This document shows, piece after piece, positions 6,669 to 52,611 of a stretch of 64,000 bases of DNA (position 1 is the first letter of the stretch; every line of letters starts with the position of its first letter). The stretch is from a virus. The stretch spans positions 1-64,000 of the IMG/VR virus record IMGVR_UViG_3300045988_164842; one strand, given 5' to 3'. Under the pieces are notes generated by a model, which did not search any database, was not told the origin of the DNA, and saw nothing but the letters and a program-made list of their open reading frames with translations. Made by a program: the position numbers and the translations under genes.

Positions 6669-7386
6669 AATTTATAAAAACACTGAATTCGGCGAAGTGA
6701 GAACTTACATAGACGAAAACGGCGAAGTAATGTTCTGCGGGAAAGATGTAGCTACGGCTTTGGGTTATAAAGATACGAATTATGCTTTGAAACTTCATTG
6801 TAGAAAAGATGAAATTAAGAAACATCTTTTTGCTACTAATAGTGGAAAACAGGAGTTTAACTGCATATCCGAAAGAAATCTTTGTAGGCTGATAATTCAC
6901 AGTAAGCTCCCGTCTGCTGAAAGATTTGAAAAGTGGGTATTTGATGAAATACTTCCGAGCGTAAGACAGTCACCATACTACGAAGAGCTTCTTCAGATGT
7001 TCAAAGCTGAAAGGGAAAGAAATAATAAACTTGAACTTCTGTTTCTGGCTCAGAAACAAATGATAGCTGAAAAAGATAGCAGGATTGATTATCGTGACGT
7101 GATACTTGTTCATGAGAAACCTGTAAGTTTTTCAGAAATCGCAAAAGACTATGGCATTACAACTGTTTGGCTTAAAGATTTTCTTGCAGATAAGAACATT
7201 CTCTTTAGCAAAAAAGGCAAACAGTTCTTACGTCCACAATACGCTAATCAGGGTTATACGGTGACGGAAATTGAAGATGATGAAGTGAGTGTAAGATGGA
7301 CACAAAAAGGAAGATTGTTTCTTTACAGGTTTTTAAAAGAGAATTCCATTCTTCCAACAATCGAAAAGGAGGGATACCATGAATGA
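6655..7386 (+). CDS. BRO-N domain antirepressor-like protein
   Basis: N-terminus IEIYKNTEFGEVRTYIDENGEVMFCGKDVATALGY and SKLPSAERFEKWVFDEILPSVRQ. C-terminal part resembles the C-terminus of 7379..8185 (WTQKGRLFLY). Confidence 0.75.
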   Translation: MNGIEIYKNTEFGEVRTYIDENGEVMFCGKDVATALGYKDTNYALKLHCRKDEIKKHLFATNSGKQEFNCISERNLCRLIIHSKLPSAERFEKWVFDEILPSVRQSPYYEELLQMFKAERERNNKLELLFLAQKQMIAEKDSRIDYRDVILVHEKPVSFSEIAKDYGITTVWLKDFLADKNILFSKKGKQFLRPQYANQGYTVTEIEDDEVSVRWTQKGRLFLYRFLKENSILPTIEKEGYHE

Positions 7387-8185
7387 TATTCAAATTTTTG
7401 AAAATTCAGAGTTCGGAAAAATAAGAACTCTGAAAATTAATGGAGAACCGTGGTTTGTTGGAAAAGACATTGCAGAAAACCTCGGATATACAGAATCCGC
7501 AAAAGCAGTAAGAAAGTATGTTGACAGTGAAGATAAAGGGGTGTCCAAAATGGACACCCCCGGAGGAAAACAAGATATAATCATCATCAACGAAAGCGGT
7601 TTATACTCTCTCGTACTTTCAAGTAAGCTCCCAACAGCAAAGCAGTTCAAGCGTTGGGTTACTTCTGAGGTTCTTCCGTCAATCCGCAAGCACGGTGCTT
7701 ATATGTCAGAACAGGTTCTTGAAGAAGTCACGAAAAATCCAGACTTCATGATAGGACTGTTACAGAAGCTTAAAGCTGAGAAGAAAAAGAACGAAGAGCT
7801 TCAGACGGCTGTCATGGCACAATCCCGTCAGATATCAGAGATGAAACCAAAGGCGAGTTACTACGATATCGTTCTTAACTGCAAAGACCTTGTCAGCGTA
7901 ACTCAGATTGCGAAAGACTACGGCAAGTCTGCACAATGGCTGAACAACTTCCTTGCGGAAAAGAAAATTCAGTTTAAGAGAAATAAGAACTGGCTCTTAT
8001 ACCAGAAATACTCGGAAGCTGGATATGCGTCAACCAAAACGCAGATATTTAACGGACGTGATGGAGAAGTCCATACATCGGTACACACTTACTGGACACA
8101 AAAGGGACGACTTTTCTTGTACGGACTTTTGAAACAACATGGAGTTCTTCCGATAATTGAAAAAGAAAACCATGACGTACCTTGA
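7379..8185 (+). CDS. BRO-N / KilAC-type antirepressor-like protein
   Basis: IQIFENSEFGKIRTLKINGEPWFVGKDIA; NESGLYSLVLSSKLPTAKQFKRWVTSEVLPSIRKHG; C-terminal KPKASYYDIVLNCKDLVSVTQIAKDYG. Confidence 0.8.
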   Translation: MNDIQIFENSEFGKIRTLKINGEPWFVGKDIAENLGYTESAKAVRKYVDSEDKGVSKMDTPGGKQDIIIINESGLYSLVLSSKLPTAKQFKRWVTSEVLPSIRKHGAYMSEQVLEEVTKNPDFMIGLLQKLKAEKKKNEELQTAVMAQSRQISEMKPKASYYDIVLNCKDLVSVTQIAKDYGKSAQWLNNFLAEKKIQFKRNKNWLLYQKYSEAGYASTKTQIFNGRDGEVHTSVHTYWTQKGRLFLYGLLKQHGVLPIIEKENHDVP

Positions 8186-24165: not shown

Positions 24166-25215
24166 TTATCTTTCCTTTCCCATAACGCTTACATACTTTA
24201 CAAATTCTGATTTCAAAACATACTGCTGTTGTTCGAGAAAGTTAATAACTTTGCTTGCATTAACCTGAAACCATTCACCGAAAACCCTGCATTCATTAAA
24301 GTGTTTATGTACCATGTTTTCAATGTCAAAAGCGTTACTGCACACGATTGACTTATATACAAGGTCAAGTTTTGTACCTGCACCAGTTTCAAGAACGTGA
24401 AGTCTTTTTTCAACATTGTTTGAAACACCGACTTTAACTCTGTCGTTTTCAGGATTTCTAATGACATAGACAAACTGTCTGCTTCTGCTGTCCTGTGGTA
24501 ACACGCTTTCAACCACTCTTGCCTTAAACATATCCATGATGGCTTGCTTCATTTTTGCAAAACTGATAATAAACCTCGCTCTGTATTCTGTAGAGTATTT
24601 AAGCATTAACTGCATAGTAGCCATTTCGCCAAGGTCATATTCTTTGTAAGTCTGCCCGTTGCTTGCGAGGTAATCAACTTCCTTGAAATCGTTAATGATA
24701 AGCTGAATGTCACTGTCCAGATTTGGACAGTGGATTTTCTGAAGCTTGTCAAGTTCATCACGAATATCTCTAAGAATATGCCTATGGTCTTTACCTGTAA
24801 CTTCCGCAATTTTTCTTGATGTTGTTATCGGAATACCGTTTTTACTGAACACAAGCCCAGCTATATTGCCTTTGAATGTGATGGTTTCAAGCTTTGTTGT
24901 CATCTTACGGATTGACGGGAGAACTTCAGAAGTAACCCAACGCTTGAACTTTTTTGCATTGGACATCTTGCTTGAGAGGATTAAACTGTAAAGACCAGAC
25001 TCGTTGATTAATATCGCTTCTCGATTTTGACCTGACAGAACGATTCGTTCTGTCAGCTTATCTTCATCATCAACATGGTCTCTTATTGCCTTTGCTGTGT
25101 TTGTGTATTCAAGAATATCTGCAATATCTTTTCCGACAAACCACGGCTCTCCGTTGATTTCCATTGTTCTGATTGTTCCAAATTCCGCTTTTTCAAAAAT
25201 TCTGATTTCGTTCAT
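24166..25215 (-). CDS. BRO-N + Rha-like + T5orf172 (GIY-YIG-related) fusion protein
   Basis: Start MNEIRIFEKAEFGTIRTMEINGEPWFVGKDIA. Middle GIPITTSRKIAEVTGKDHRHILRDIR. C-terminal FVYVIRNPENDRVKVGVSNNVEKRLHVLETG...FGEWFQV. Confidence 0.8.
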   Translation of the reverse strand: MNEIRIFEKAEFGTIRTMEINGEPWFVGKDIADILEYTNTAKAIRDHVDDEDKLTERIVLSGQNREAILINESGLYSLILSSKMSNAKKFKRWVTSEVLPSIRKMTTKLETITFKGNIAGLVFSKNGIPITTSRKIAEVTGKDHRHILRDIRDELDKLQKIHCPNLDSDIQLIINDFKEVDYLASNGQTYKEYDLGEMATMQLMLKYSTEYRARFIISFAKMKQAIMDMFKARVVESVLPQDSRSRQFVYVIRNPENDRVKVGVSNNVEKRLHVLETGAGTKLDLVYKSIVCSNAFDIENMVHKHFNECRVFGEWFQVNASKVINFLEQQQYVLKSEFVKYVSVMGKER

Positions 25216-25231
25216 GTGTTGTCCCCTTTCA

Positions 25232-29690: not shown

Positions 29691-30467
29691 TTAAGCAGTT
29701 GCTTCATGTTCCATCAATGGAAGTATTCCGTCATTTTTCAGCATTTTGTAAATAAACAAACGCCCTTTTTGTGACCAGCAAAGAAATTCTCTAACATGAG
29801 GAACTCCACTAGTGTCAGTAACAAGATTTGTCTTGGTGCTTGCATAACCTTTATCAGAATACTTCTGGTATAAGAGCCAGATGTTTCCCTGACGGTACTG
29901 GATTTTCTTTTCACGAAGATAACGGTTAAGCCATATTGCTGACTTGCCGTAATCTTTTGCGATAACTGAAATCGGTACGAGGTCTTTGCAGTTAAGAACA
30001 AGGTCGTAGTAGCTTGCTTTCGGTTTCATGACTTCAATTTCTGCTGAAAGTTCTTTGTTTTTATTCTGTTCTGACTGGAGTGTTTGAAGCAGAGTGATGA
30101 GGTTCTCCGGTGTGCTGAGTGCCTGAGTAAGTGCCTGAGGTGTCATGTATGCACCGTGTTTACGAATTGACGGAATTACTTCGGAGGTAATCCATTTTCT
30201 GAATGGTTTAGCTTGTGGCTTATCAGAACGAAGGATAACAGCGTAAAGCCCTGACTCGTTGATTACCGTCATCTCTCTCTTCTGTCTACCTGATGTCAAT
30301 TTGACTGACATCAGCTCGTCTTTATCCAATCTGCTGGCAACCATTCTTGAATTGCCTATTTCAAGCACTTTACAGACATCAGCCAGAACCCACCATGGCT
30401 CATTGTTAATTTCCGTCACTCTGATTTTGCCGAAGGTTTCATTTTCAAAAATTCTGATTTCGTTCAT
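29691..30467 (-). CDS. BRO-N / KilAC antirepressor-like protein
   Basis: Start MNEIRIFENETFGKIRVTEINNEPWW. NESGLYAVILRSDKPQAKPFRKWITSEVIPSIRKHG. C-terminal KPKASYYDLVLNCKDLVPISVIAKDYG. Confidence 0.8.
   Translation of the reverse strand: MNEIRIFENETFGKIRVTEINNEPWWVLADVCKVLEIGNSRMVASRLDKDELMSVKLTSGRQKREMTVINESGLYAVILRSDKPQAKPFRKWITSEVIPSIRKHGAYMTPQALTQALSTPENLITLLQTLQSEQNKNKELSAEIEVMKPKASYYDLVLNCKDLVPISVIAKDYGKSAIWLNRYLREKKIQYRQGNIWLLYQKYSDKGYASTKTNLVTDTSGVPHVREFLCWSQKGRLFIYKMLKNDGILPLMEHEATA
30199..30254. repeat. 56-bp inverted repeat partner (pairs with 5062..5117)
   Basis: Reverse complement matches 5062..5117 at 55/56 positions. Confidence 0.8.
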
Positions 30468-30468
30468 G

Positions 30469-31230
30469 TTAAAAATCCTTTCTATACTTATTGCTTTTGC
30501 GTGTTGATTTTTTTCTGACCTGTACAAGCTTTCCTTTCTTAGGCATATTTTTAGCTGTGTTCGCCTTAATAGACATCTTCATCTTTTCAAAACTGACAAT
30601 GATTTTCGCCCAATACTCTTTAAAATATCCGGGTATTAGCCACATAGCAGCCATTTCGCCGAGTTCGTATTCCGAACACTTTTCATAGTCTTCATTAAGG
30701 TAGTAGCTTTTTCTGAAATCGTTTATTATAATCCGGAGGTCAAGACTATCGCAAGGTTCATTATACAAGTAGTTAATTTCCTCGTCGATAGCACAACAGA
30801 TTTCAAGGTTGCTTTTTCCTACGAGTTTCGCTATTGCTCTTGAAGTAGTTACAGGAATTCCATTTTTATTGAACACAAGATAGTCCACATTATCTTCATA
30901 GGTAAGCATTTCAGTTTCTTCATTGTTTGAGCGGAAGAACGGCAGAATTTCAGTGTCTATCCACTTCCTAAAGTACCCTACTTCAAAACATTGAGCATTC
31001 TTAATAATGGTGTCCACACCATGTTTGTTAATCGCAAATTCGCCTGATGACAAAGTGACTTTATCGACTTCGTCTATCATGTCTTTAGAAGGCGTAACTT
31101 TCATCATGTTAGCGACTTCCTTTTCATTAAACCAAGGTTCTCCATCAATCTTCGCAACTTTGAGTGAGCCGAAAAAGTCATTCCAGAAAACCGAAAAATC
31201 ATTGCTGACAATATTTGATACACTACGCAT
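30469..31230 (-). CDS. degenerate BRO-N + Rha-like protein
   Basis: FGSLKVAKIDGEPWFNEKEVANMM and GIPVTTSRAIAKLVGKSN. Start is placed at MRSVSN (AAAGGAAAG RBS); the alternative upstream ATG at 31293 lacks an RBS. Confidence 0.65.
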   Translation of the reverse strand: MRSVSNIVSNDFSVFWNDFFGSLKVAKIDGEPWFNEKEVANMMKVTPSKDMIDEVDKVTLSSGEFAINKHGVDTIIKNAQCFEVGYFRKWIDTEILPFFRSNNEETEMLTYEDNVDYLVFNKNGIPVTTSRAIAKLVGKSNLEICCAIDEEINYLYNEPCDSLDLRIIINDFRKSYYLNEDYEKCSEYELGEMAAMWLIPGYFKEYWAKIIVSFEKMKMSIKANTAKNMPKKGKLVQVRKKSTRKSNKYRKDF

Positions 31231-32485: not shown

Positions 32486-33394
32486 TTATTTTTTACTTTT
32501 TTGGACATTTGAAAGAGGTGAATTGAACATAGCTTCTTTCTTTTGGTTGTCGCTAATATGCGTATAAATCCTTGTTGTGTTCAGATTTTCATGTCCGAGA
32601 ATTTCACAAAGTGTGAGCAAGTCAACACCACCTTGGTACATCATTGTAGCGGCACTGTGTCTAAGTTTGTGTGTAGAAAGTCCTTTATCTTCAAGTCCTG
32701 CCGCCTTCAATGATTTCTTTACAAGCTCCTGTGTTGCCCTAACACTTATTCTTTCTTTCTTCTGAGAAACAAACAACGCTTCGTTTTCATCTTCCTTTAC
32801 ATAAAGGTATTCTTCCAGAGCTTTTATACAAGCCTTGTTGAGAAAGAGCAGGCGTTCTTTATTTCCTTTGCCGAGAATTTTCATAGTACATTCCGAGAAA
32901 TCGATGTCTGACACGTTGAGATTTACAAGCTCACTTACACGCAAACCACAATTAAGGAACAGTACGAGAATACAGTAATCTCTTTCCGGGTGACGACTAA
33001 AGTCACTGACATGATTAAGAATTTCCGTAGCTTCATCAAGCGTTGCATATTTTGGCAACGCTTTTTTTATCTTTGGTCGTTCAACAAATTCCGCAGGGTT
33101 TTTGTCAATAAGATGAAGCCTTTTCCTTGCGTATTCAAAGAACGATTTGAGAGCGGAAATAGCTCTTGCACGGGTGTTGGTACACACGTTGTTGTCTGCA
33201 AGATGATTAAGGTAATCGTAGATGTTTTCCGGTGTGACTTTCGCTACATCATCAAGAGTAACATTCTCTTTCAGAATGTATGAGAAAAACGATTCAGCTT
33301 CCCTTGTGTATATAAGAATTGTCTGAGGGGAATTTGCTTTGATGACTTTCAGGTATTCAGCGTATTCATTGATAATTTTTTCTTTGTATTCCAT
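32486..33394 (-). CDS. int: tyrosine recombinase / integrase (XerC/D-like)
   Basis: Catalytic region HKLRHSAATMMYQGGVDLLTLCEILGHENLNTTRIYTH, plus an upstream GLRVSEL box. Confidence 0.9.
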   Translation of the reverse strand: MEYKEKIINEYAEYLKVIKANSPQTILIYTREAESFFSYILKENVTLDDVAKVTPENIYDYLNHLADNNVCTNTRARAISALKSFFEYARKRLHLIDKNPAEFVERPKIKKALPKYATLDEATEILNHVSDFSRHPERDYCILVLFLNCGLRVSELVNLNVSDIDFSECTMKILGKGNKERLLFLNKACIKALEEYLYVKEDENEALFVSQKKERISVRATQELVKKSLKAAGLEDKGLSTHKLRHSAATMMYQGGVDLLTLCEILGHENLNTTRIYTHISDNQKKEAMFNSPLSNVQKSKK

Positions 33395-36216: not shown

Positions 36217-37017
36217 TCAGTCAACCTTTATCCCAGTTGTTCTGAAAAAGATTTCGCTATCAAAGTTCGGGAGACTTTTAATTTCCTCTTTATCGCATGG
36301 AGAGAGGTTGTTCCATTTGTTTTGTTTATCTTCGGATTCTATAAGAGTAATCATGATTTTTCTTGCTGGTGAAGACATCCAATCTTCATAAGTCCAATCC
36401 GACATTTTATCGAACATACGAATACATTCCTTTTTGTAGGACTTTTCATTGAAACAGCCATAAACGTATGCTCCTGAATTGCAATCACCATAATTATAGT
36501 TACCTGAATTGCAATCACCATAATTATAGTTACCTGAATTGTAGTAACCGTAATTACGAGTACCTGAGTTAAAGCTTCCGCAATTTTCTTCACCTGAATT
36601 GCAATCGCCATAATTATAAACTCCGTCATTATTGCTACCATAGTTATTCCAACCAAGATTATTATTTCCGTAATTGAAGTTACCCTCGTTGTCATTACCG
36701 TAATTATAGTTGCCTGAATTCAAAACTCCCGCATTGTCTTCCCCGGAATTCATTTCAGCAAGAAAATCTTCCATGTGATATACTTTAATCACTCTAAAAT
36801 CTTTAGCAGTGAAAAATTCGTTTTCAAAAGGAGTTCCTTTATCCGACATTTCTATTTCTCCAAGAGCCTCCAATTGAACAATAACACCGAAAGTGTAGGA
36901 ATAATCTAAAAGATTAACGCCTTTTTTCATAAACCTAAGCCCTTCTTTATCATGGATGACATCAGAGAGAGAAAAATTGCGAAATTCATCAGGTGTAAGA
37001 TGTATATATCCTTCCAT
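36217..37017 (-). CDS. pentapeptide-repeat protein
   Basis: About 20 pentapeptides (NSGNY NYGND NEGNF NYGNN NLGWN NYGSN NDGVY NYGDC NSGEE ...). C-terminal FDKMSDWTYEDWMSS...LPNFDSEIFFRTTGI is shared with 10751..11305. Confidence 0.85.
   Translation of the reverse strand: MEGYIHLTPDEFRNFSLSDVIHDKEGLRFMKKGVNLLDYSYTFGVIVQLEALGEIEMSDKGTPFENEFFTAKDFRVIKVYHMEDFLAEMNSGEDNAGVLNSGNYNYGNDNEGNFNYGNNNLGWNNYGSNNDGVYNYGDCNSGEENCGSFNSGTRNYGYYNSGNYNYGDCNSGNYNYGDCNSGAYVYGCFNEKSYKKECIRMFDKMSDWTYEDWMSSPARKIMITLIESEDKQNKWNNLSPCDKEEIKSLPNFDSEIFFRTTGIKVD
36473..36742. repeat. 30-bp periodic coding repeat array (two perfect copies)
   Basis: CCTGAATTGCAATCACCATAATTATAGTTA occurs at 36473-36502 and 36503-36532 (identical), followed by about seven diverged 30-bp units. 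Each unit encodes two pentapeptides. Confidence 0.85.
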
Positions 37018-44620: not shown

Positions 44621-46349
44621 TAAAATGTTCGTTATTTTTTAGGGATATTTCACCCTTAGCGCAACGCACCTATATAGATACGCTCCGTTAAGGAAGAAAT
44701 TAGAATACAACCAGCGTATTCTAAAGTCCCTTAACGCCGTGGAATTTTGTCAGCCCCACAGCAGAAAACAGAAACTTTTTTCGCCATATATTTAAATAGT
44801 CTCTATATAATCCGCCAACGTTGCTAAACTTCAAAGGGATTTTAGCAGTTTCTAACAGCAACAAAAATATTGCTGAAAATCCCCATCAACGCCGAAACAC
44901 GTCAACTTTTTATATAAATCTATTCATTTTTCAAGTTGCTTTATGGAATTTTCATCCAATAGTGAGTTTCACACTATAAATTAACATTCAAAATTAAGTG
45001 TTCCAAAAACGCCGTTTTAAATCGCTTTTTCAGAACGTTCCAAAAACGTTCTGACGATTTTTTGAATTATTAAATTATCTTTTCTATGCTTTTATTATAG
45101 CATAGAATTTTATGTTTGTCAACCCTTTTTGAAAAATTTTTTTGATTTTTTCAGGGCGTTTGACTCTCCCCATAGCCGCCCGGGTTTTTTGTTTTCCCTG
45201 ACTGTGGTTATAGTATACCACGCCCCCACCCTGATTTATACCACTTTAAAATAACATTCTATGAACTTTATATTAATATACAACACTTAGCCCGTAAAGT
45301 GTTAATTATCTATACAGTTGAACGGCTAACCGTTGAATAATACCATATTAATTGCTAATAAAAGTAAAAGCAAGGGTGTTCTTGTATTATATCAGAAATA
45401 ACAATAAATGTAATTGCTATTTTTTTTGTAATAGGAGGTGAACAAGTGTTAACATTTTCCCAGAGCTGGATTGTACTACTCTAACTAATACAGTTTATGA
45501 ACAATTTATGAATTAGTTAAGTTTCAACGATATTTACAATAATAGTAAAATAGATAACTTGTTAATATCTGTAAGACTTGCATAAGGAAAATAATAGAAA
45601 CAACGTGTAATACATATTACACGCGGTTTTAGGCGTATATGGGGCGTGTATTGAAATAACTGTAAAAATAAAGCAGCTTAGAGAACGATACAGGTATTCA
45701 AAAACTCATGTCTTATTTCTCAAATTGAAATCTCTACAAGTACTTCAAAATTTCCACAAATCAAATAAGATTTTTGAGATTATAAGAATAAAAAATCAGT
45801 CTGATACATTTAGGATTTAGGAGTAATCAGTATTGTAAAATGCGTAAAATAAATGATAACTCCGATGGCTTATGGGAAATATTGAATATATAATCTTGTT
45901 ATTATGTTGGCTCGTAAAGAGTAATGATTGCAGAGGTATTCAGGAAGTGAGATTAAGAACTATCAGTCTCAAAGGTCTTCCAGAATTGCAGGTAATATTT
46001 TTTTTAAAAAAATACAAATTGGACGTAACGAATTGCAGGAGACTAATAAAAGAGCAGGTCATATATTTCAAAAAATATCACACAAGAAAAGAAAGTAAGG
46101 ATTGCAGAAGTCTTTGGAGATTCAGTTCTTACAGGCTTATAAGCTGTGTGTTTGTGTTCTATCGGGAAGTTTTCTGTATCTTGTTTCTGCTTGGGATTTT
46201 TTCTTATGAAAAAATTTTTTCTTGCTTTTTCGGGAGGTTTGCAACATCGAGAGGTAAATTGTAAACTTTCTGTTAAGTATATTGACGTGATAAACCACGC
46301 ATTTACGGGCTTTGTGAGCATACAAAAAGTTCCTTAATAATTTGGAAAC

Positions 46350-46378
46350 TTGAGTTTTTGTCAGTTTTGTGATATAAT
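46350..46378 (+). promoter_or_regulatory. sigma70-like promoter with extended -10 for the helicase/sigma/RNAP operon
   Basis: TTGAGT(46350-46355)-17 nt-TATAAT(46373-46378), with TG at 46370-46371. Confidence 0.6.
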
Positions 46379-46574
46379 AAAAACAGACGAAGAGAAGAAG
46401 CTGACGGAATAGCAACAGAAGTTAGAGAGCTTCTTTTCTTACTTAATGGTTCGTAGGAGTAGAATATAAGGTATAGGTGTTTCCGGCACAAAAACCTCTA
46501 CAACCAACGTATCTATGGGCTTTATGAGCATTTTTTTTAAAAACCCTCAGTGTCACATTTGAAAGGAGCATAAA

Positions 46575-48053
46575 ATGACCTATATTTCGCAATTAAACTT
46601 CAAAAACAACATTGTTCCTCACAAACTCAATTTGCTTTATGCAGGTTGCGGAACAGGAAAGACAGAATGGGCAACAAGAAAAGTGTTTCAGGATTTCCCT
46701 GACATCAAACCTTGCGAAACACTTCTCGTTGTTCCTAAAACGTGGATTGCAAAACAACAGGCTGAGAAAAGGAATGTCTACAGGTATGTCAGCTCAGAAA
46801 GAGCGATGTCAGATGAAAATAAGAAATGGCGTGACTACTGGAATGGTGTTTCTGATGAAGTTGACAACGAGAATGTTGTCAATGTTTTGACTTATGCAAC
46901 CCTTATCAATATTCTTCGCAATCCAGAAAGCAACGGACGTTTACCTTTTGAGAGGATAAAGCTTGTAATCATTGACGAATGTCATTCTCTTTTTACTGAA
47001 ACTTACATGACTGATTTGAATGTTATGAATCTTTGGCTTAACATGGCTATCAAAACAACAGATACTTTATTTATCGGTATGAGTGCAACTCCTATGCTTA
47101 TAAAAGAGTATGCAGAAAAAGTAATTTGTAGTCCGGTAAATCAGGTCAACAAGGAAGTTATAATGAACTATACAGCAGAAAATCTTATTATAACCGACAA
47201 AGAAACCATCCCGTATATGCTTCATAGCGGTTTTCTTACAGGCAGAACGCTAATAATGTGCAATTCCCTTGAAGAATGTAAATGTCTTTCGTATGTTCTC
47301 AGTGACTCTGCTTATATTGTTAGTGAGTACAACAATGAATACGCACCAGACATGGCTGAGATTACAGATTATATTTTAAAGAACAACAGCATTCCTGATA
47401 CATTTAAAGGCAAGAAACTTAAAGTTCTTCTCTCTACGGCTGTCCTTAGAGAGGGGATTACTTTCAAAAAAGATTGTGGTATTGAAAATATAATCTGTAT
47501 GTCGGGTTGTGATGTAAACATTATTCAGATTGCTGGAAGATGCCGCTACAACATCAAAAATCTTATTGTCGTAAAGCCATTGACTATATCGTCTAATACA
47601 ATTGATTACGTCAAAAAGAAGGAAATGCAGTTCAGGGATTTTTGTAAAGGCAGGTACACAGATAATGGTTGGTTCGATGGTATAAAACACATTCTTTCTT
47701 TTAACGATATCAAGAAAATTCAGTATAAAACAAAGGAAGACTTCTTTTGTGGAGATACATATAACATACCAAAAAACAGCAAGGCATTATTAAAAAAATC
47801 AGTTGCTGAAAAATTAAATGCGTACATCGAAAGAAATTTAAAAGGGAAATTCGTAACAGAAAAAGAAAGAAAAGAAGCTGTCAAATTCATGTGTGAAAAC
47901 TCAATTCTTTCTGGCGACCCTGACAAAATAACACCACAAGCCTTTTATAAATTCATTGAAACAAATACCCCATACACCTTAGAACCAGAACGAAAAAGAG
48001 TTGATGGCAGATTAAAACGTGGTTGCTCTTTTCGCAAGAAAAGGAGTAAATAA
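46575..48053 (+). CDS. superfamily 2 (DEAD/DEAH-like) helicase
   Basis: Motif I AGCGTGKTEWA, motif II IIDECHSLF, motif III GMSATP, motif VI IQIAGRCRY. Confidence 0.8.
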   Translation: MTYISQLNFKNNIVPHKLNLLYAGCGTGKTEWATRKVFQDFPDIKPCETLLVVPKTWIAKQQAEKRNVYRYVSSERAMSDENKKWRDYWNGVSDEVDNENVVNVLTYATLINILRNPESNGRLPFERIKLVIIDECHSLFTETYMTDLNVMNLWLNMAIKTTDTLFIGMSATPMLIKEYAEKVICSPVNQVNKEVIMNYTAENLIITDKETIPYMLHSGFLTGRTLIMCNSLEECKCLSYVLSDSAYIVSEYNNEYAPDMAEITDYILKNNSIPDTFKGKKLKVLLSTAVLREGITFKKDCGIENIICMSGCDVNIIQIAGRCRYNIKNLIVVKPLTISSNTIDYVKKKEMQFRDFCKGRYTDNGWFDGIKHILSFNDIKKIQYKTKEDFFCGDTYNIPKNSKALLKKSVAEKLNAYIERNLKGKFVTEKERKEAVKFMCENSILSGDPDKITPQAFYKFIETNTPYTLEPERKRVDGRLKRGCSFRKKRSK

Positions 48054-48526
48054 TGACTGCGGTACGATTATTTCAGGAAAATGAAGGTCTTGTTCACTAT
48101 GTGCTCAATCACTACACACTGAAGCCTTTTTCTTATAAGCTCGGTTATACCTATGAAGACTGGACTTCCGTAGGACGTGAAGGGCTGTGGAAAGCTTCTA
48201 AAGAGTACGTGAGCAAAGATACGACATATGCATTCAGCACAATAGCTTGTAACCACATTCAGAACAACATACGGCAAGAACTAAGAAAGAAAAGAATTGC
48301 CTTGTGTCCTTTAGAAGAAAACATGATAATCCCAAAAGATAGCTTTGACGAAACACTCTTTTCAGTCAAAGAGATTGTAGGCGAAAAAGAGTACAATATT
48401 TTACTGGACTACTACGGTCATAAATACACTTTCGAGTATTTGAGTGAGAAATACGACATGACAAACGCTCAACTCAAAAAACTTTTGAACACACTTCCGA
48501 GAAAAATCAGAAAGGAGTTCTCTTGA
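48053..48526 (+). CDS. sigma-70 family RNA polymerase sigma factor (small, regions 2 and 4)
   Basis: Region 2 pattern ENEGLVHYVLNHY...EDWTSVGREGLWKASKEY...YAFSTIACNHIQNNIRQELRK. C-terminal HTH YLSEKYDMTNAQLKKLLNTLPRKIRK. Confidence 0.75.
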   Translation: MTAVRLFQENEGLVHYVLNHYTLKPFSYKLGYTYEDWTSVGREGLWKASKEYVSKDTTYAFSTIACNHIQNNIRQELRKKRIALCPLEENMIIPKDSFDETLFSVKEIVGEKEYNILLDYYGHKYTFEYLSEKYDMTNAQLKKLLNTLPRKIRKEFS

Positions 48527-51220
48527 ATGACTAATAGGAATATCATGGTCTACAAATTTGAAAGTCAGTTTCTCAAAGAGCATAACTATAAGCTCAATCT
48601 TTCCTTTGATGAAGCTGAGAGTTGCGGTCAGATTATCAAGATTGCCGATAATCAGTTTCTAAGAACTATCCGCAGGTTTACACTTCATACTATCAATTTT
48701 CAGAGAGTTGAAAGACTGTATCACGAAAGAGATATCTTATCCAAGAAAAATTGCGATGAAGAAAGAAGACTGACTGTTACAAGCCGTATTAATCGCAGTT
48801 TGTTTGTTCCTGAATACATGGAAGTCTCCATGACGACAAATTCTCAGTACAAAGAAATCATCAAAAAGAGAATTACTCTTAATGGCAAAGTGTATAGAAG
48901 ACTTTCATGTTCCGCAGGACAAGCAAGGAACGAAACTGTTATCTTTTGTTCTGAAGAAATTATTTCCGATGTGAAGAAAGCTATTGACAATGACAGAAAA
49001 CCTATTCCCGTTGCTCCGTCAAAGTACAACGCCTATTTTGGTTTAGCAGGTTCCGCAACTCAGATTGTCAGTGAGCCAAGGTTCATTGTGGTGAAAGACT
49101 TTGAGAACGAAACATCTTTTAAATGTCATTGGGTGGAAGAAGCAGGCGACAATGAAGACGATATTATTTCCGAAAAGGTGATAACCCAAAAGATGAATCG
49201 AACAGACGGCATGGGGCTTATATCTCCCAGGCTTGCTAAAAAGTGGGCGAAAGAATTAGACCTTGACTATGTTCCAAGTCAGTTCGGAATAAGACAAGCT
49301 TTTCTCAAAGGTATGTTATGCGTGTTCGATATTCACACTTTCTGTAAAGAAAAGAACCATGGTAACTACATGATAGAAACCGTATATGGCGAAAAGGTAG
49401 ACATACGAAATTACGATATTATCTTTTCTGAATCTCAGTTCAAGTTGTGGAATGCGTATGATAATGAAAAAGACTATGCGGATAAATGTCGGAAGAATAA
49501 GCTTTACTGGGGTGTTCCACAATACGCTCCGAAAGAGTGCAAGAACACGCTGAAAATGAATTATCAATTCCTGCAAACGCTTAATATCAAAGATGAAGAC
49601 ATTCCTCTCATATGTAATCAAACAGTTGAGTGGATAAGAGGGGTTTCATATGCGAACCCTGCATACATATTTCTGTTTTTCTTAGGGGCAAACATAACCG
49701 AGCAGAAAATAAAAACGTTTTTGCAGTACCAAGGAAACTGGTGGCTGAAAGCGTTAATAGCAAATCCAGACCTTATGGTTCAGGATAAATATATCCAAAG
49801 TCAGATTAAGAGGCTTATAAAGAAAAAAATCCATGACACATACATAGGCGAAATTTTTCTTGAAGGTAATTTCCAGATACTTGTGTCAGACCCTTATGCA
49901 TTCATGCAATCAGTGTGTGGTATTACACCTACTGGCTTACTGAAAGAAAATGAATACTACTCAAACTACTGGAATGAACGTGGCGTATCTCTTGTTGATG
50001 GTATGCGTTCCCCTCTCACATTTCGTTCTGAACACGTTTTAATGAATCTTATAAAGAATGATGAAACTGAAAAATGGTACAAACATTGCAAGACTGGCGT
50101 CATTCTGAACTGGCATGGTCATGATTGCGTAAACTTCGCAGGAAGCGACTTTGACCTTGACATTCTCGCAACCACCTGTAATGATGTTGTTCTCAGGTCT
50201 ACATACAAAAACGAGCTTCCTGTAGGGTATGATGTAAGCAAACCTGTAAAGATACTTCCTACGGAAGAAGACCTTATAAAAGCTGACTTCTTTTCTTTTG
50301 GTTCTATCATAGGCAGTATTACAAACAAGAGCAGTAACGCCTATGCATTGCTCGCAAATTTAGAAAGAAACCCTGAAAAGAATAAAGAACAGATTCAGAT
50401 TGTGTATAGCAGGCTTATTCAATGCTGTAAGGCTCAAGGAAAACAAATCGACAAAGCGAAAATAGGTCAAAAGGTTAAAGGTATCCCAAACATCTGGATA
50501 AAGTATATTCCACATGATGACAGGGATACTGATGAAATTACTCAACAAAAAGACCTTATAAATACTTGCTTACTTGACAAACCTCCTTATTTTTTTATTT
50601 ATCGTTATCCTGATTATTACACTAAGTATAGAAAATATATTAAAAATGCTGACGGATATTGCAAAAAGAAGTACCATGCAAGTTTGAATACGGTTTCTCA
50701 GAACCCTGATACAGCGGATAAGAAGAAATTCATTAATAGTTTTTACAAGAAAATGCCTGTGGTCGATAGCCCAAGTTCAATGAATAAGATTTGCCACTAT
50801 CTCGAAAACACTGTAATGGATATTCAGAGTGAAACCACCATTAATCCAGATATAAGCAAATATCTTAGAGATAATACCGTGTTTGTATCAAAGGAGAGGG
50901 AAGACGAAATAATTTCAGCCTTTGTTGTCTTTCTTAGCGAAATCAGTACAACTTTAGGAAACAAGCACTCTGATTCGGATATTGTAAAAGTGTTCCGTGA
51001 AATCTACAGAAACTATTGTATGTCTGATGTTGTGAATGTTCTTGTCGATAATTTTTACAACAGCAAAGCTTCAGTCTTGTGGATAGTTATCGGTAAAAAT
51101 CTTCTTCATAATCTTTGTGTTAATACAGTTGGAGAGGAAAATGTAATGATACCTTTTCCAGACGAACAAGGTGAAATCGAGTACATGAACAAAAGATACG
51201 GTTGGAGGGTCGTGGAATGA
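48527..51220 (+). CDS. YonO / RdRP-like single-subunit two-barrel RNA polymerase candidate
   Basis: SQFGIRQAFLKGMLCVFD (compare QIR..G.KG of the RdRP/YonO clade), IFSESQFKLW, GMRSPLTFRSEHV, and the three-Asp motif AGSDFDLD (compare NADFDGD / DbDGD). 897 aa. Start codon abuts the sigma stop. Confidence 0.6.
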   Translation: MTNRNIMVYKFESQFLKEHNYKLNLSFDEAESCGQIIKIADNQFLRTIRRFTLHTINFQRVERLYHERDILSKKNCDEERRLTVTSRINRSLFVPEYMEVSMTTNSQYKEIIKKRITLNGKVYRRLSCSAGQARNETVIFCSEEIISDVKKAIDNDRKPIPVAPSKYNAYFGLAGSATQIVSEPRFIVVKDFENETSFKCHWVEEAGDNEDDIISEKVITQKMNRTDGMGLISPRLAKKWAKELDLDYVPSQFGIRQAFLKGMLCVFDIHTFCKEKNHGNYMIETVYGEKVDIRNYDIIFSESQFKLWNAYDNEKDYADKCRKNKLYWGVPQYAPKECKNTLKMNYQFLQTLNIKDEDIPLICNQTVEWIRGVSYANPAYIFLFFLGANITEQKIKTFLQYQGNWWLKALIANPDLMVQDKYIQSQIKRLIKKKIHDTYIGEIFLEGNFQILVSDPYAFMQSVCGITPTGLLKENEYYSNYWNERGVSLVDGMRSPLTFRSEHVLMNLIKNDETEKWYKHCKTGVILNWHGHDCVNFAGSDFDLDILATTCNDVVLRSTYKNELPVGYDVSKPVKILPTEEDLIKADFFSFGSIIGSITNKSSNAYALLANLERNPEKNKEQIQIVYSRLIQCCKAQGKQIDKAKIGQKVKGIPNIWIKYIPHDDRDTDEITQQKDLINTCLLDKPPYFFIYRYPDYYTKYRKYIKNADGYCKKKYHASLNTVSQNPDTADKKKFINSFYKKMPVVDSPSSMNKICHYLENTVMDIQSETTINPDISKYLRDNTVFVSKEREDEIISAFVVFLSEISTTLGNKHSDSDIVKVFREIYRNYCMSDVVNVLVDNFYNSKASVLWIVIGKNLLHNLCVNTVGEENVMIPFPDEQGEIEYMNKRYGWRVVE

Positions 51221-51984
51221 TAGACTTTAAGTATGACGAATACGCATACGCTGAACATATAATCGAGAGTGGCTTTACTTCTCAGCTTTCAAACGAGTTA
51301 AGAATTGTCGCCACATACTATCGCAGGATTTTCGATTACAAGCAAGTCGAGGTTAAAGCAAAGCTTACAGACTTATGCCGTAAACATATCAATTCTTTTC
51401 ATGTCGGGAACTACTACAAAGCAATCAATAAAGCTATTTCTGTTGCTTTCAAGGACAACGCAAGACTCGTAAAGATAAGAGAGATTCCGATTTTTCAAAA
51501 AGAACTTGACTATATAAACCAACCTGATTTATCCACAAATGAAAAAAGAGTTCTGTTTACGTTGCTTGTAATGCATAAAATCAAAAAAGAAAGATACCGT
51601 CAAATCTACCAAAAGGAAAGTCAAAGCAATGTTTATTTTGCTAAGAACGGTCGCTTCACTGAAATCAAGAAACTTAGCAATATTCCGCAAAGTCTTGATA
51701 TCGACCTTGATGTGTTTTACTCTCTTACTTTGAAAGGTTATATCAATCCACTGTATAACGGAAATATTCAACTTCTTTTCCTTGACAAATGTATTTCTTC
51801 TGAAGCTCCTGTTGCTATGATTTCAGATTTCCGAAACCTCGGCTATAGGTTTGAAATTCTTACAGGCAACAACAAATACATTGTTTGTCAGCATTGCGGA
51901 ATACCTTGCTTGAAAAGGAATAATTCTGCTATCTACTGTTCTGAAAGCTGTTGCTTACAAGCGAAGCAAGGTCAATGTTGTTAA
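51217..51984 (+). CDS. hypothetical protein with a C-terminal zinc ribbon
   Basis: Start MIDFKYDEY follows GGAGGGTCGTGGA. C-terminal CQHCGIPC...YCSESCC. Confidence 0.6.
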   Translation: MIDFKYDEYAYAEHIIESGFTSQLSNELRIVATYYRRIFDYKQVEVKAKLTDLCRKHINSFHVGNYYKAINKAISVAFKDNARLVKIREIPIFQKELDYINQPDLSTNEKRVLFTLLVMHKIKKERYRQIYQKESQSNVYFAKNGRFTEIKKLSNIPQSLDIDLDVFYSLTLKGYINPLYNGNIQLLFLDKCISSEAPVAMISDFRNLGYRFEILTGNNKYIVCQHCGIPCLKRNNSAIYCSESCCLQAKQGQCC

Positions 51985-52117
51985 TTGTTTCTAAATTGTG
52001 AACAAATCCAGAAAACTGAAACTGCCTTATAATATCCTCTTTTCTGCTGTATTTAGACGATTATGTATTCAATACATATCTATGATAGACTAAAAATAGC
52101 AGGAAGTGGGTGTTAAA

Positions 52118-52396
52118 ATGGCTCAGTATGCGTGCATATATGGTGTTGGTGAATGCGTTGGTTGTGGTGAATGTTCGAGTAGCTTGAAATGCTCTGAATG
52201 TGGAAAGCCTATAACTAACGAAAGCCAACACCTTTGTTTTAATTGCTGGCAAAGTAATAAGATGAGGGATATGAGGTTTCTTGAAGATTTTGCAGATTAC
52301 TGTGATGTTGAATACACCTTACCTGAATGTGTGGAAGTCTTTCAGGATGAATTTGAAGAATTTTGTAGAGAGGGCTATCATGAAGGTGTTGAATGA
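52118..52396 (+). CDS. Cys-rich small acidic protein
   Basis: Start MAQYACIYGVGECVGCGEC...CSECGKP...CFNCW. Confidence 0.55.
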   Translation: MAQYACIYGVGECVGCGECSSSLKCSECGKPITNESQHLCFNCWQSNKMRDMRFLEDFADYCDVEYTLPECVEVFQDEFEEFCREGYHEGVE

Positions 52397-52501: not shown

Positions 52502-52583
52502 GCTACCATGGTGAAATAGGAAGACACAGCGGACTTTAAGTTCGTTGAGGAAACTCATGTCGGTTCAAGTCCGACTGGTGGTT
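52502..52583 (+). tRNA. type II tRNA with anticodon UUA (reads UAA; ochre-suppressor type)
   Basis: Hand fold. Acceptor GCTACCA/TGGTGGT (2 G-U pairs). TG. D arm GTG-AAATAGGAAGA-CAC. Anticodon stem GCGGA/TTCGT. Loop C-T-TTA-A-G. Variable arm TGAG-GAAA-CTCA. T arm GTCGG-TTCAAGT-CCGAC. Discriminator T; no encoded CCA. Confidence 0.8.
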
Positions 52584-52611
52584 CTTAGATTTAAGAAAGG
52601 AAGTTCGTGTT

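What the first reader, a model, noticed from the sequence alone, without database searches (positions are those of the whole stretch)
46575..51220. Translationally coupled SF2 helicase, sigma-70-family factor and YonO/RdRP-like single-subunit RNA polymerase
The 897-aa ORF carries motifs that I recognise from the two-barrel polymerase clade containing eukaryotic RNAi RdRPs and SPbeta YonO. These are FGIRQAFLKGMLCVFD (QIR..G.KG block), SESQFKLW, RSPLTFRSEH and a three-aspartate AGSDFDLD (compare the beta-prime NADFDGD). It is preceded, with overlapping or abutting stop and start codons, by a 157-aa sigma-70 region 2/4 protein and an SF2 helicase. YonO-type enzymes are reported to act without sigma. 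A sigma gene welded to such a polymerase raises two possibilities: a two-tier takeover (sigma redirects host RNAP, the phage RNAP transcribes late genes), or an undescribed partnership. Together with the DnaE-like replicase, this points to an SPbeta-like lifestyle in a different host lineage.
Basis: partly seen in the sequence, partly recalled or inferred. Interest (0 to 1): 0.75.

Follow-up and report, generated by a model that had tools for sequence, protein, structure and literature searches.

The report
Phage YonO-type polymerase operon with sigma
An SPβ-like phage carries a tightly coupled four-gene operon (helicase, small sigma factor, YonO-type RNA polymerase, zinc-ribbon partner); the polymerase is a known kind, but the sigma and helicase welded to it are a rare, undescribed variant that offers a handle on how these minimal polymerases find promoters.

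Summary
ORFs 46575-48053 (SF2 DExH helicase), 48053-48526 (157-aa sigma-70-family protein) and 48527-51220 (897-aa polymerase) are present, with overlapping or abutting stop and start codons.

The 897-aa protein is a clear YonO/RdRP-type two-barrel polymerase. It passes Pfam RdRP, matches SPβ YonO at 3e-33, and its DFDLD aligns on YonO's catalytic DNDGD. The triad is invariant in about 130 homologues. The AF2 model (pLDDT 89.6) hits only QDE-1 and RDR2.

The sigma is genuine (TIGR02937 above cutoff), nearly an orphan, and under purifying selection.

A fourth coupled gene was missed (51217-51984, 255 aa, zinc ribbon). It follows YonO genes almost everywhere, and its C-terminal module is fused to YonO in SPβ, so it is the conserved partner.

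Helicase plus sigma occur only in one small clade (at least 11 assemblies). More than 95% of YonO loci lack sigma. Distant helicase homologues recur next to YonO genes without sigma.

I favour a cascade: host σA promoter, then the operon; sigma redirects host RNAP, and YonO plus its partner transcribe the late genes. A direct sigma-YonO partnership is not excluded (about 0.2).

Also noticed: a phage tRNA-Leu-derived UAA suppressor. In close relatives the sigma stop is TAA, so read-through would fuse sigma to the polymerase.

The parts
46350..46378 (+). Candidate host sigma-A-type promoter of the operon (TTGAGT, 17 nt, TATAAT, with an upstream TG)
   Evidence: Consensus scan, 10 of 12 matches plus TG. 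The -35 and the TGTGnTATAAT block are conserved between the window and L009 while the flanking sequence has diverged. Promoter-like sites overall are not enriched over shuffles, so this is inferred, not shown.
46575..48053 (+). SF2 DExH helicase, 492 aa (core about aa 1-330, plus a roughly 160-aa C-terminal domain of unknown family)
   Evidence: Pfam ResIII and DEAD, phrog_16. Invariant residues G26/G28/K29, D134-E135-C136-H137, A171-T172 and Q318/G321/R322/R324. The nearest solved relatives by profile are all RNA helicases: SLH1/Brr2, RIG-I/LGP2/Dicer and DEAD-box. Homologues at 22-34% identity sit next to YonO-family genes in L140, L141 and L128.
48053..48526 (+). Sigma-70-family factor, 157 aa (region 2, linker, region 4; no region 3)
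   Evidence: TIGR02937 3.8e-13, 49.4 bits against a cutoff of 42.9, aa 5-155. phrog_351 3.7e-12. The profile of its relatives hits SigF 1l0o at 4e-27, and SigA, FliA and WhiG. dN/dS 0.12. It is almost an orphan: outside its own cluster the best hit among 1.84 billion representatives is 3e-11.
48527..51220 (+). YonO-type single-chain two-barrel RNA polymerase, 897 aa; catalytic triad D541, D543, D545
   Evidence: Pfam RdRP 2.5e-19. BLASTP to SPβ YonO 3e-33, with DFDLD aligned on DNDGD. AF2 pLDDT 89.6. The top 21 Foldseek PDB hits are all RDR2 or QDE-1, E 6e-19 to 4e-15. The triad is 100% conserved.
51217..51984 (+). Conserved YonO partner protein, 255 aa, with a C-terminal CxxC...CxxxC zinc ribbon and basic tail; start overlaps the polymerase stop (ATGA)
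   Evidence: Junction read. Homologue directly downstream of YonO in 93 of 129 loci by plain phmmer; most of the rest have a 230-260 aa ORF there. Four invariant cysteines. Its C-terminal module aligns to SPβ YonO aa 734-836 (HMM, 21 bits, E 8e-9) and aa 787-835 (hhalign, 94.9%, E 4.7e-8). No Pfam, PHROG or PDB family.
51999..52087 (+). Conserved non-coding element just downstream of the operon (TGAACAAA...GAAAACTGAAA...CTTATAA...ACATATCTATGATA); candidate late promoter
   Evidence: Conserved in the window, L012 and L009, although the TATAAT is not (TATGTT in L009). Occurs once in the window. At the same position, 12 of 91 other YonO loci carry TYT-N2-3-CTTATGR, against 0.27 expected. Function is inferred only.
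52502..52584 (+). Type-II tRNA with anticodon TTA (UAA suppressor), derived from tRNA-Leu(TAA)
   Evidence: ARAGORN and Rfam. It differs from L012's tRNA-Leu at 2 of 83 positions, one being the middle base of the anticodon. The same TTA anticodon is present in four independent assemblies.

Best explanation
This is the transcription-takeover operon of an SPβ-like temperate phage. It appears to be expressed by host RNA polymerase from a sigma-A-type promoter about 200 nt upstream, and it encodes four translationally coupled proteins.

1. The 897-aa protein is a YonO-type single-chain, two-barrel, DNA-dependent RNA polymerase. As in SPβ, it transcribes the packaging and structural (late) operon that begins just downstream.
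2. The 255-aa zinc-ribbon protein encoded immediately after it is its conserved accessory factor, or a detached C-terminal module.
3. The 157-aa sigma most likely binds host core RNA polymerase and redirects it to phage promoters. That gives a two-tier programme: sigma with the host enzyme, plus the phage's own rifampicin-insensitive enzyme.
4. The DExH helicase acts on RNA or R-loops in support of phage transcription.

Shown here: the gene identities, the coupling, conservation of the catalytic site, and the family-wide partnership of YonO with the zinc-ribbon protein.

Inferred: which polymerase the sigma binds, the promoter assignments, and the role of the helicase.
For: Polymerase identity.

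SPβ precedent: YonO transcribes the late operon from a single start site (PMC5467207). The synteny YonO, partner, HU, YonG, TerL, portal is seen.

Sigma is a canonical sigma-70-family protein with the region 2 signature and a region 4 HTH, and it is under purifying selection.

Sigma is not a general YonO requirement:
- Among about 125 other YonO loci with 8-kb flanks, only 4 have any sigma-like ORF.
- In L117 and L105 it is a classic ECF sigma (TIGR02954) transcribed divergently, the arrangement expected of a host-RNAP regulator.
- YonO and RdRP-type enzymes lack the SBHM flap that binds sigma region 4 (PMC7824862) and most msRNAP domains (PMC5467207).

The zinc-ribbon protein is the conserved neighbour and is partly fused to YonO in SPβ.

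A conserved sigma-A-like promoter lies upstream of the helicase.

The helicase-YonO association recurs at 22-34% helicase identity without sigma.
Against: - Nothing here shows which polymerase the sigma binds.
- Translational coupling of sigma to the polymerase, kept across a clade in which sigma has diverged to 53% identity, is what one would expect of subunits of one complex.
- The sigma is highly divergent. It replaces the usually conserved Gln of the region 2.2 core-binding segment with Ser in all clade members (the mapping to sigma-70 Q406 is from my own knowledge).
- No sigma-type promoter consensus could be found in the window.
- The sigma-A promoter call rests on a consensus match plus conservation in a single diverged relative.
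Confidence: 0.6

Rival explanations
1. The sigma is a dedicated promoter-specificity subunit of the YonO-type polymerase in this clade. On this reading a sigma-70-family protein has been recruited to a minimal two-barrel enzyme, possibly together with the zinc-ribbon protein.
For: Tight coupling (TGA or TAA abutting the ATG) is conserved in at least 11 assemblies. The sigma is an orphan that evolves faster than its neighbours yet is under purifying selection. The conserved element downstream of the operon in this clade has a different upstream half from the GGnTTT...CACTTTT...CTTATGA element of sigma-less relatives. In L145-L147 a phage UAA suppressor co-occurs with a sigma-TAA-ATG-polymerase junction, so a covalent sigma-polymerase fusion is evidently tolerated there. 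How YonO recognises promoters is an open question.
Against: More than 95% of YonO loci have no sigma nearby, and their conserved partner is the zinc-ribbon protein. YonO-type enzymes lack the flap/SBHM, the canonical docking site for sigma region 4. An abutting stop and start is in frame by construction, so the fusion argument is weak. In the window itself the stop is TGA, which anticodon UUA cannot read.
Confidence: 0.2
2. The sigma works with host RNAP as a switch or auto-activator for the operon itself (lysis-lysogeny or induction control), not as a middle or late gene factor. This would be like the ECF sigma and possible anti-sigma pairs that flank YonO operons in Lachnospiraceae prophages.
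For: In L117, L105 and L101, ECF-type sigma genes are divergently adjacent to YonO and are followed by a 460-480 aa ORF that could be an anti-sigma. The window operon begins at a 1.9-kb regulatory region with divergent promoters and repeated motifs.
Against: No anti-sigma candidate lies next to the window's sigma. The promoter upstream looks like a sigma-A promoter, not an ECF one. The sigma belongs to a different subfamily from those ECF sigmas: its closest solved relatives are SigF, FliA and WhiG.
Confidence: 0.12
3. The helicase-sigma pair is a recently inserted accessory cassette (a moron) with no role in the YonO programme. Its position is simply one of several interchangeable cargo slots upstream of yonO.
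For: The slot upstream of YonO is variable across the family: a CoiA-like nuclease in BUCT082, L017 and L141, a methyltransferase in L014, nothing in L018. Helicase plus sigma are confined to one small clade.
Against: Distant helicase homologues are again found next to YonO genes in three independent lineages. Purifying selection and coupling are maintained.
Confidence: 0.08

Closest known systems
YonO of Bacillus subtilis prophage SPβ (single-chain DNA-dependent RNA polymerase; Forrest et al. 2017, PMC5467207)
   Same: Homologous over aa 82-600 (27% identity, E 3e-33). The catalytic DxDxD triad aligns. Same genomic position, ahead of the HU gene and the late packaging and structural operon. 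Same kind of phage, with a DnaE-type replicase.
   Different: Only 27% identical. The closest characterised phage relative is BUCT082 at 43%. SPβ YonO carries the zinc-ribbon and basic tail at its own C-terminus, whereas here that module is on a separate coupled 255-aa protein. SPβ has yonP upstream, with no helicase and no sigma.
Eukaryotic RNAi RNA-dependent RNA polymerases (QDE-1, RDR2; Pfam PF05183)
   Same: Passes the Pfam RdRP gathering score. The AF2 model aligns over roughly 730-940 columns with TM 0.41-0.51 and probability 1.00.
   Different: 13-15% sequence identity. By analogy with YonO, the phage enzyme is expected to copy DNA and to transcribe genes. Template preference was not tested here.
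crAss-like phage virion RNA polymerase (phi14:2 gp66 type)
   Same: Weak structural similarity in the BFVD search (E 1e-7 to 8e-3).
   Different: Much more distant. Those are domains of giant virion proteins that are injected into the host, not a free 100-kDa enzyme in a middle-gene operon.
Phage-encoded sigma factors that redirect host RNAP (e.g. SPO1 gp28 and gp33/34, T4 gp55, SP10 Orf199-200)
   Same: A small phage sigma-70-family protein with regions 2 and 4. The nearest phage hit is the Brevibacillus phage Jenst sigma, 33% identity over aa 1-86. SP10 sigma factors are mentioned in PMC8270828. The other examples are from my own knowledge.
   Different: Those phages do not also encode their own RNA polymerase next to the sigma. 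Here sigma is translationally coupled to one.
Non-sigma specificity subunits of phage multisubunit RNAPs (phiKZ gp68, AR9 gp226)
   Same: The concept of a phage-specific initiation factor for a phage two-barrel polymerase (PMC7824862; gp226 from my own knowledge).
   Different: Those enzymes are multisubunit β/β'-like assemblies and their factors are unrelated to sigma. The nearest analogue here is the 255-aa zinc-ribbon protein, not the sigma.

Membership tests
YonO/RdRP-type two-barrel RNA polymerases (Pfam PF05183) | Sequence membership: score above the curated Pfam threshold, and direct homology to YonO | tested here: met
   PF05183 at 69.9 bits against a cutoff of 23.8. BLASTP to SPβ YonO 3e-33. 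tblastn to 26 Bacillus SPβ-like phages.
YonO/RdRP-type two-barrel RNA polymerases (Pfam PF05183) | DxDxD metal-binding aspartate triad in the β'-like barrel, aligned with the triad shown to be catalytic in YonO | tested here: met
   D541-F-D543-L-D545 aligns with YonO D-N-D-G-D. All three Asp are present in 130-131 of 130-131 family ORFs that cover the site. The YonO 3D>3N mutant is inactive (PMC5467207).
YonO/RdRP-type two-barrel RNA polymerases (Pfam PF05183) | Overall fold with two double-psi β-barrels in one chain | tested here: met
   AF2 pLDDT 89.6, pTM 0.84. The top 21 PDB hits are exclusively QDE-1 and RDR2 at probability 1.00, followed by weak hits to β' subunits.
YonO/RdRP-type two-barrel RNA polymerases (Pfam PF05183) | Conserved basic residues of the β-like barrel | tested here: inconclusive
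   R256, K261 and K306 are invariant across the family, but they were not mapped onto the structure.
YonO/RdRP-type two-barrel RNA polymerases (Pfam PF05183) | DNA-templated, rifampicin-insensitive RNA synthesis; transcription of the late genes | not testable with these tools
   Needs biochemistry or transcriptomics.
Sigma-70 family | Region 2 (core binding, -10 recognition) | tested here: met
   TIGR02937 at 49.4 bits against a cutoff of 42.9, matched over the full length. Pfam Sigma70_r2 is only 19.4 bits against a cutoff of 24 for the window protein, but all 27 aligned relatives hit it. The profile hits SigF at 4e-27.
Sigma-70 family | Region 4 helix-turn-helix (-35 recognition, flap binding) | tested here: met
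   The TIGR02937 match runs to aa 155 of 157. The profile aligns to SigF region 4. 11 of 27 relatives hit Sigma70_r4. The window protein alone gives no Pfam r4 hit.
Sigma-70 family | Binds bacterial core RNAP and directs promoter-specific initiation | not testable with these tools
   The AF2 model of the sigma was poor (pLDDT 58). No complex prediction was available.
SF2 (DExH) helicases | Walker A (motif I), DExH (motif II), SAT (motif III) and QxxGRxxR (motif VI) | tested here: met
   GCGTGKT, DECH, SAT and QIAGRCR are in the sequence and invariant in 18 homologues. Pfam ResIII and DEAD are above cutoff.
SPβ-like phages | Shared module order: YonO, HU (YonN), YonG, terminase, portal; DnaE-type replicase | tested here: met
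   (YonG_N and YonG_C Pfam on the homologue). There is no nucleotide-level similarity to any deposited phage, so it is not a member of the genus Spbetavirus.

The most novel reading that the evidence does not exclude
In this clade a sigma-70-family protein has been captured as the initiation factor of a minimal single-chain two-barrel RNA polymerase, working with the zinc-ribbon partner. In close relatives (L145-L147) it is even fused to the polymerase at some frequency, through a phage-encoded UAA-suppressor tRNA reading the sigma TAA stop. That would show that sigma-type factors can serve a polymerase that lacks the flap and clamp docking domains, and would give the first defined initiation system for YonO-type enzymes.
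Probability: 0.15. Interest if true: 0.9.

Novelty: new variant of a known kind. Interest (0 to 1): 0.55.

Why it matters
YonO-type enzymes are the simplest known relatives of cellular RNA polymerases, and how they find promoters is an explicitly open question (Forrest et al. 2017). This locus supplies three concrete, co-expressed candidate cofactors.

1. A family-wide zinc-ribbon protein, part of which is fused to YonO in SPβ. It is the strongest candidate and, as far as I could find, undescribed.
2. An SF2 helicase that recurs beside YonO genes in distant lineages.
3. A clade-specific sigma factor.

It also offers a conserved DNA element at the place where the late promoter should be. Each of these can be tested directly with purified proteins. 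If the sigma proved to work with the phage enzyme, it would bear on how initiation factors and two-barrel polymerases co-evolved. If it works with the host enzyme, the phage is a clean example of a dual strategy that combines a sigma with its own polymerase.

Tried and rejected
1. Sigma-polymerase fusion by read-through in the window. The two ORFs are in the same frame and a UAA-suppressor tRNA lies 4 kb downstream, but the window's sigma stop is TGA, which anticodon UUA cannot read. This is rejected for the window. It remains possible in L145-L147, where the stop is TAA.
2. The CTTATAAT at L004 8704 as the published SPβ P_YonO. Mapping the primer-extension primers from the paper's supplement places the start site within L004 8030-8222. 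Rejected.
3. The small ORFs (141-171 aa) that directly follow distant helicase homologues are not sigma-like.
4. The upstream 515-615 aa proteins of BUCT082 and L007 are not helicase or sigma fusions. They are CoiA-like or unknown.
5. Motif discovery for a sigma-specific promoter. The repeat search and bipartite 5-mer enumeration in 30 upstream regions gave nothing above shuffles. The family motif TYT-N2-3-CTTATGR occurs in the window only at chance level.
6. AF2 of the sigma from a 3-sequence alignment gave pLDDT 58, unusable for fold search.
7. Single-sequence PDB searches of the polymerase and sigma found only spurious hits.
8. Genome-wide TAA recoding. In-frame ORF pairs separated by TAA are at about the chance level.
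9. PADLOC: no defence-system assignment beyond generic helicase similarity.
10. Literature search for YonO plus sigma factor found no description of such a pairing.

Full report

- I read the junctions from the sequence.
- The helicase stop and the sigma start overlap as TAATG.
- The sigma stop TGA directly abuts the polymerase ATG, and each start is preceded by a Shine-Dalgarno sequence.
The polymerase stop TGA (51218-51220) overlaps an ATG at 51217 (ATGA), which opens a 255-aa protein ending at 51984.
- The unit is therefore a four-gene operon.

**The polymerase.** Identification as a YonO/RdRP-type enzyme is secure.

- Pfam RdRP (PF05183) scores 69.9 bits against a gathering score of 23.8. 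The PHROG family it matches (2e-126) has no assigned function.
- tblastn finds 41 phage records, including SPβ yonO itself and other Bacillus SPβ-like phages. The best is Bacillus phage BUCT082 at 43% over the full length.
- BLASTP against SPβ YonO gives 3e-33 and places the window's S-D-F-D-L-D on YonO's F-D-N-D-G-D. Forrest et al. mutated that triad and found it to be catalytic (PMC5467207).
- Across all 160 family ORFs gathered from about 140 loci, down to 22-27% identity, every ORF that covers the site has all three aspartates, and also R256, K261, G262, K306, R494 and P496.
- An AlphaFold2 model built on that alignment is confident (pLDDT 89.6, pTM 0.84).
- Its top 21 Foldseek hits in the PDB are all plant RDR2 or fungal QDE-1 (E 6e-19 to 4e-15, probability 1.00, TM 0.41-0.51). 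Next come weak hits to β' subunits of cellular polymerases.
- In the viral library it hits phage 'RdRP' proteins and, more weakly, crAss-like and phi14:2 gp66-type proteins.
- The family is large: at least 999 homologues in the big protein collection. Only two clusters are close (97% and 82%), and the rest start at about 50%.

**The sigma.** The 157-aa protein is a genuine sigma-70-family member.

- NCBIfam TIGR02937 matches it end to end at 49.4 bits, against a cutoff of 42.9. phrog_351 'RNA polymerase sigma factor' matches at 3.7e-12.
- It is very divergent. Pfam Sigma70_r2 alone is below threshold.
- An exhaustive HMMER search of 1.84 billion representatives finds only its own cluster below 1e-30, and then nothing better than 3e-11.
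- A profile built with 24 full-length distant hits shows the canonical region 2 pattern and a region 4 HTH. It hits solved sigma factors strongly: SigF 1l0o at 4e-27, then SigA, FliA and WhiG. All 27 members hit Pfam region 2.
- dN/dS against a 90%-identical relative is 0.12, so the gene is under purifying selection.
- It is the fastest-evolving gene of the four. Identity to the L009 relative is 53%, against 70% for the helicase, 82% for the polymerase and 80% for the fourth gene.
- The AF2 model from three sequences was too poor to use.

**The helicase.** Motifs I, II (DECH), III and VI are present and invariant in its family, and Pfam ResIII and DEAD pass.

- By profile, the nearest solved proteins are all RNA helicases: Ski2-like SLH1 and Brr2, RIG-I, LGP2 and Dicer, and DEAD-box proteins.
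- Those matches cover mainly the first RecA domain, so I treat an RNA or R-loop substrate as a hint only.

**Context.** The window is a large SPβ-like phage.

- It encodes a primase-helicase, a DnaE-type polymerase, a sliding clamp, NrdD, ThyA, an anti-repressor and a tyrosine-recombinase-like protein.
- Immediately after the operon come an HU-like protein, a YonG-like protein, the large terminase and the portal. The YonG Pfam domains are on the homologue.
- No deposited phage is similar at the nucleotide level.
- Upstream of the helicase is a 1.9-kb ORF-poor region.
- Within it, a sigma-A-type promoter with an extended -10 (46350-46378) is conserved in the diverged relative L009 while its surroundings are not.
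- This suggests that host RNA polymerase expresses the operon, as it does for yonO in SPβ. That step is inferred.

**How general is each neighbour?** I fetched 119 further YonO-family loci with 8-kb flanks and scanned all ORFs with profiles.

- *Sigma:* adjacent and co-directional only in the window's own clade, now seen in at least 11 assemblies.
  - Elsewhere only four loci have any sigma-like ORF within 8 kb.
  - In L117 and L105 it is a classic ECF sigma (TIGR02954), transcribed divergently from YonO and followed by a 460-480 aa ORF.
- *Helicase:* close homologues occur only in the clade.
  - Homologues at 22-34% identity lie immediately upstream of a very divergent YonO in L140, upstream of a YonO only 27% identical to the window's in L128, and 4.4 kb upstream of CoiA-YonO in L141. 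None of these has a sigma.
- *Fourth gene:* a homologue sits directly after YonO in 93 of 129 loci by plain phmmer. Most of the rest have a 230-260 aa ORF there, or a split YonO.
  - The family has four invariant cysteines forming a zinc ribbon and matches no known family.
  - Its C-terminal module aligns to the C-terminus of SPβ YonO: HMM, aa 734-836, 21 bits, E 8e-9 for that single comparison; hhalign, 94.9%, E 4.7e-8, aa 787-835.
  - This agrees with the c-st annotation 'YonO homolog (C-ter only)'.
  - It is a fusion/split relationship, so this protein, not the sigma, is the conserved companion of YonO-type polymerases.

**Which polymerase does the sigma serve?** This cannot be settled with sequence tools.

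For host RNAP:
- the sigma has canonical architecture;
- sigma is absent from more than 95% of YonO loci;
- the other YonO loci that have a sigma carry an ECF-type gene in divergent orientation;
- the literature notes that RdRP and YonO enzymes lack the SBHM flap that binds sigma region 4 (PMC7824862), and lack most msRNAP domains (PMC5467207).

For a direct partnership:
- the coupling is conserved;
- the sigma is an orphan and evolves fast;
- Ser replaces the usual Gln in the region 2.2 core-binding segment in all clade members (the mapping is from my own knowledge);
- the conserved element after the operon has a different upstream half from that of sigma-less relatives.

I put the cascade at about 0.6 and the partnership at about 0.2.

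**Promoter leads.**

- Just after the fourth gene lies a block conserved among the window, L012 and L009: TGAACAAA (51999), GAAAACTGAAA (52011), CTTATAA (52026) and ACATATCTATGATA (52074). The TATAAT within it is not conserved.
- It occurs once in the window, which fits a single late promoter as in SPβ.
- At the same position, 12 of 91 other YonO loci carry TYT-N2-3-CTTATGR, often with GGnTTT and CACTTTT upstream, against 0.27 expected from shuffles. In those loci 12 of its 16 occurrences are at that spot.
- This is a candidate YonO-type promoter, not shown to be one.
- A resemblance to a site in SPβ was checked against the published primer-extension primers and rejected.
- No sigma-type bipartite consensus emerged from the window's intergenic regions.

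**An unexpected extra: a suppressor tRNA.**

- Between the operon and the HU gene lies a type-II tRNA with anticodon TTA, a UAA suppressor.
- The syntenic tRNA in L012 and L009 is tRNA-Leu(TAA). The window's copy differs from L012's at two positions, one being the middle base of the anticodon.
- The TTA form is present in four independent assemblies, so it is not a sequencing error.
- In the window, L143 and L144 the sigma stop is TGA.
- In L145-L147, which carry the suppressor, the sigma stop is TAA abutting the polymerase ATG, so read-through would produce a sigma-Leu-polymerase fusion.
- An abutting stop and start is in frame by construction, and TAA is the commonest stop codon here, so I do not treat this as evidence of a designed fusion.
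- I found no sign of genome-wide TAA recoding.
- A survey of phage recoding describes TAG and TGA reassignment, not TAA (bioRxiv 10.1101/2021.08.26.457843).

**Verdict.**

- The polymerase, sigma and helicase identifications are supported.
- The polymerase belongs to a known and abundant family, and the phage is SPβ-like.
- What is new is the architecture: a sigma and an SF2 helicase translationally coupled to a YonO-type polymerase in one small clade.
- Also new, as far as I could find, is the recognition that a zinc-ribbon protein is the family-wide partner and is partly fused to YonO in SPβ.
- I rate this a new variant of a known kind, of moderate to good interest, because it turns the open question of YonO promoter recognition into a few direct experiments.

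Noticed in passing
window 52502-52584 (+); also L144 4548-4630, L145 12930-13012, L146 10594-10676, L147 8084-8166: Phage tRNA with anticodon TTA (UAA/ochre suppressor), derived from the tRNA-Leu(TAA) found at the same position in L012 and L009. It differs from L012's copy at two bases, one being the middle of the anticodon. It is present in five independent assemblies. There is no evidence of genome-wide TAA recoding, and its role is unexplained.
   Followed up: partly
L145 8950-8955, L146 6614-6619, L147 4104-4109 (sigma/polymerase junction): In close relatives that carry the UAA suppressor, the sigma stop codon is TAA directly abutting the polymerase ATG, so read-through would make a sigma-Leu-polymerase fusion. 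In the window, L143 and L144 the stop is TGA instead.
   Followed up: partly
window 51217-51984 (+): A 255-aa zinc-ribbon protein translationally coupled to the polymerase. Homologues follow YonO genes in most of about 130 loci, and its C-terminal module is homologous to the C-terminus of SPβ YonO (a gene split or fusion). It matches no known family.
   Followed up: yes
Within 250 nt downstream of the zinc-ribbon gene in L021, L028, L030, L046, L065, L099, L101, L102, L112, L117, L119, L120: A position-specific motif, GGnTTT...CACTTTT...TYT-N2-3-CTTATGR, occurs in 12 of 91 YonO loci against 0.27 expected. It is a candidate sigma-independent YonO promoter. The window clade has a different upstream half but shares the CTTAT core (51999-52087).
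   Followed up: partly
L117 5463-6080 (-), L105 6937-7473 (-), L101 6330-6887 (-): In Lachnospiraceae contigs, ECF-type sigma genes (TIGR02954 in L117 and L105) lie immediately upstream of YonO on the opposite strand. Each is followed by a 460-480 aa ORF that could be an anti-sigma factor.
   Followed up: partly
L138 6001-8735: A helicase homologue is followed by three small genes, including a sigma region-4-like HTH protein of 127 aa, and then PhoH. There is no YonO gene in the position where relatives have one.
   Followed up: no
window 44670-46574: A 1.9-kb ORF-poor regulatory region. It has a perfect leftward consensus promoter (45122-45094), a rightward promoter (46350-46378), and a repeated motif GGGCTTTRTGAGCAT at 46307 and 46517. 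The second copy lies in a 5'-UTR block conserved with L009.
   Followed up: partly
window 32486-33394 (-): A 302-aa tyrosine-recombinase-like protein sits among the replication genes. In SPβ-like phages the master repressor (MrpR/YopR, SroF) has an integrase-like fold (abstracts of PMC10516654 and bioRxiv 10.1101/2025.11.27.690993), so this could be a repressor and not an integrase.
   Followed up: no
window 36449-36750 (within the - strand ORF 36217-37017): About 13 overlapping copies of a 15/30-nt periodic repeat inside a 266-aa ORF, implying a short-peptide repeat protein.
   Followed up: no
window 24547-25217 vs 30232-30879; 4855-5156 vs 7385-7689: Diverged duplicated segments (72-77% identity) inside anti-repressor/Bro-like genes. 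These are paralogous regulator genes in two parts of the genome.
   Followed up: no
L002 (phage c-st), L053, L056, L059, L068-L070, L076, L078, L082, L090-L092: Many YonO genes are split into a roughly 550-aa N-terminal ORF plus a remainder, with the tblastn match spanning 3.0-4.0 kb. This suggests insertions (IS elements in c-st; possibly introns, inteins or homing endonucleases elsewhere).
   Followed up: no
window 52106-52396 (+): A Cys-rich 96-aa ORF between the operon and the tRNA, conserved at the same length in L009, L012 and L144. It matches no family.
   Followed up: no
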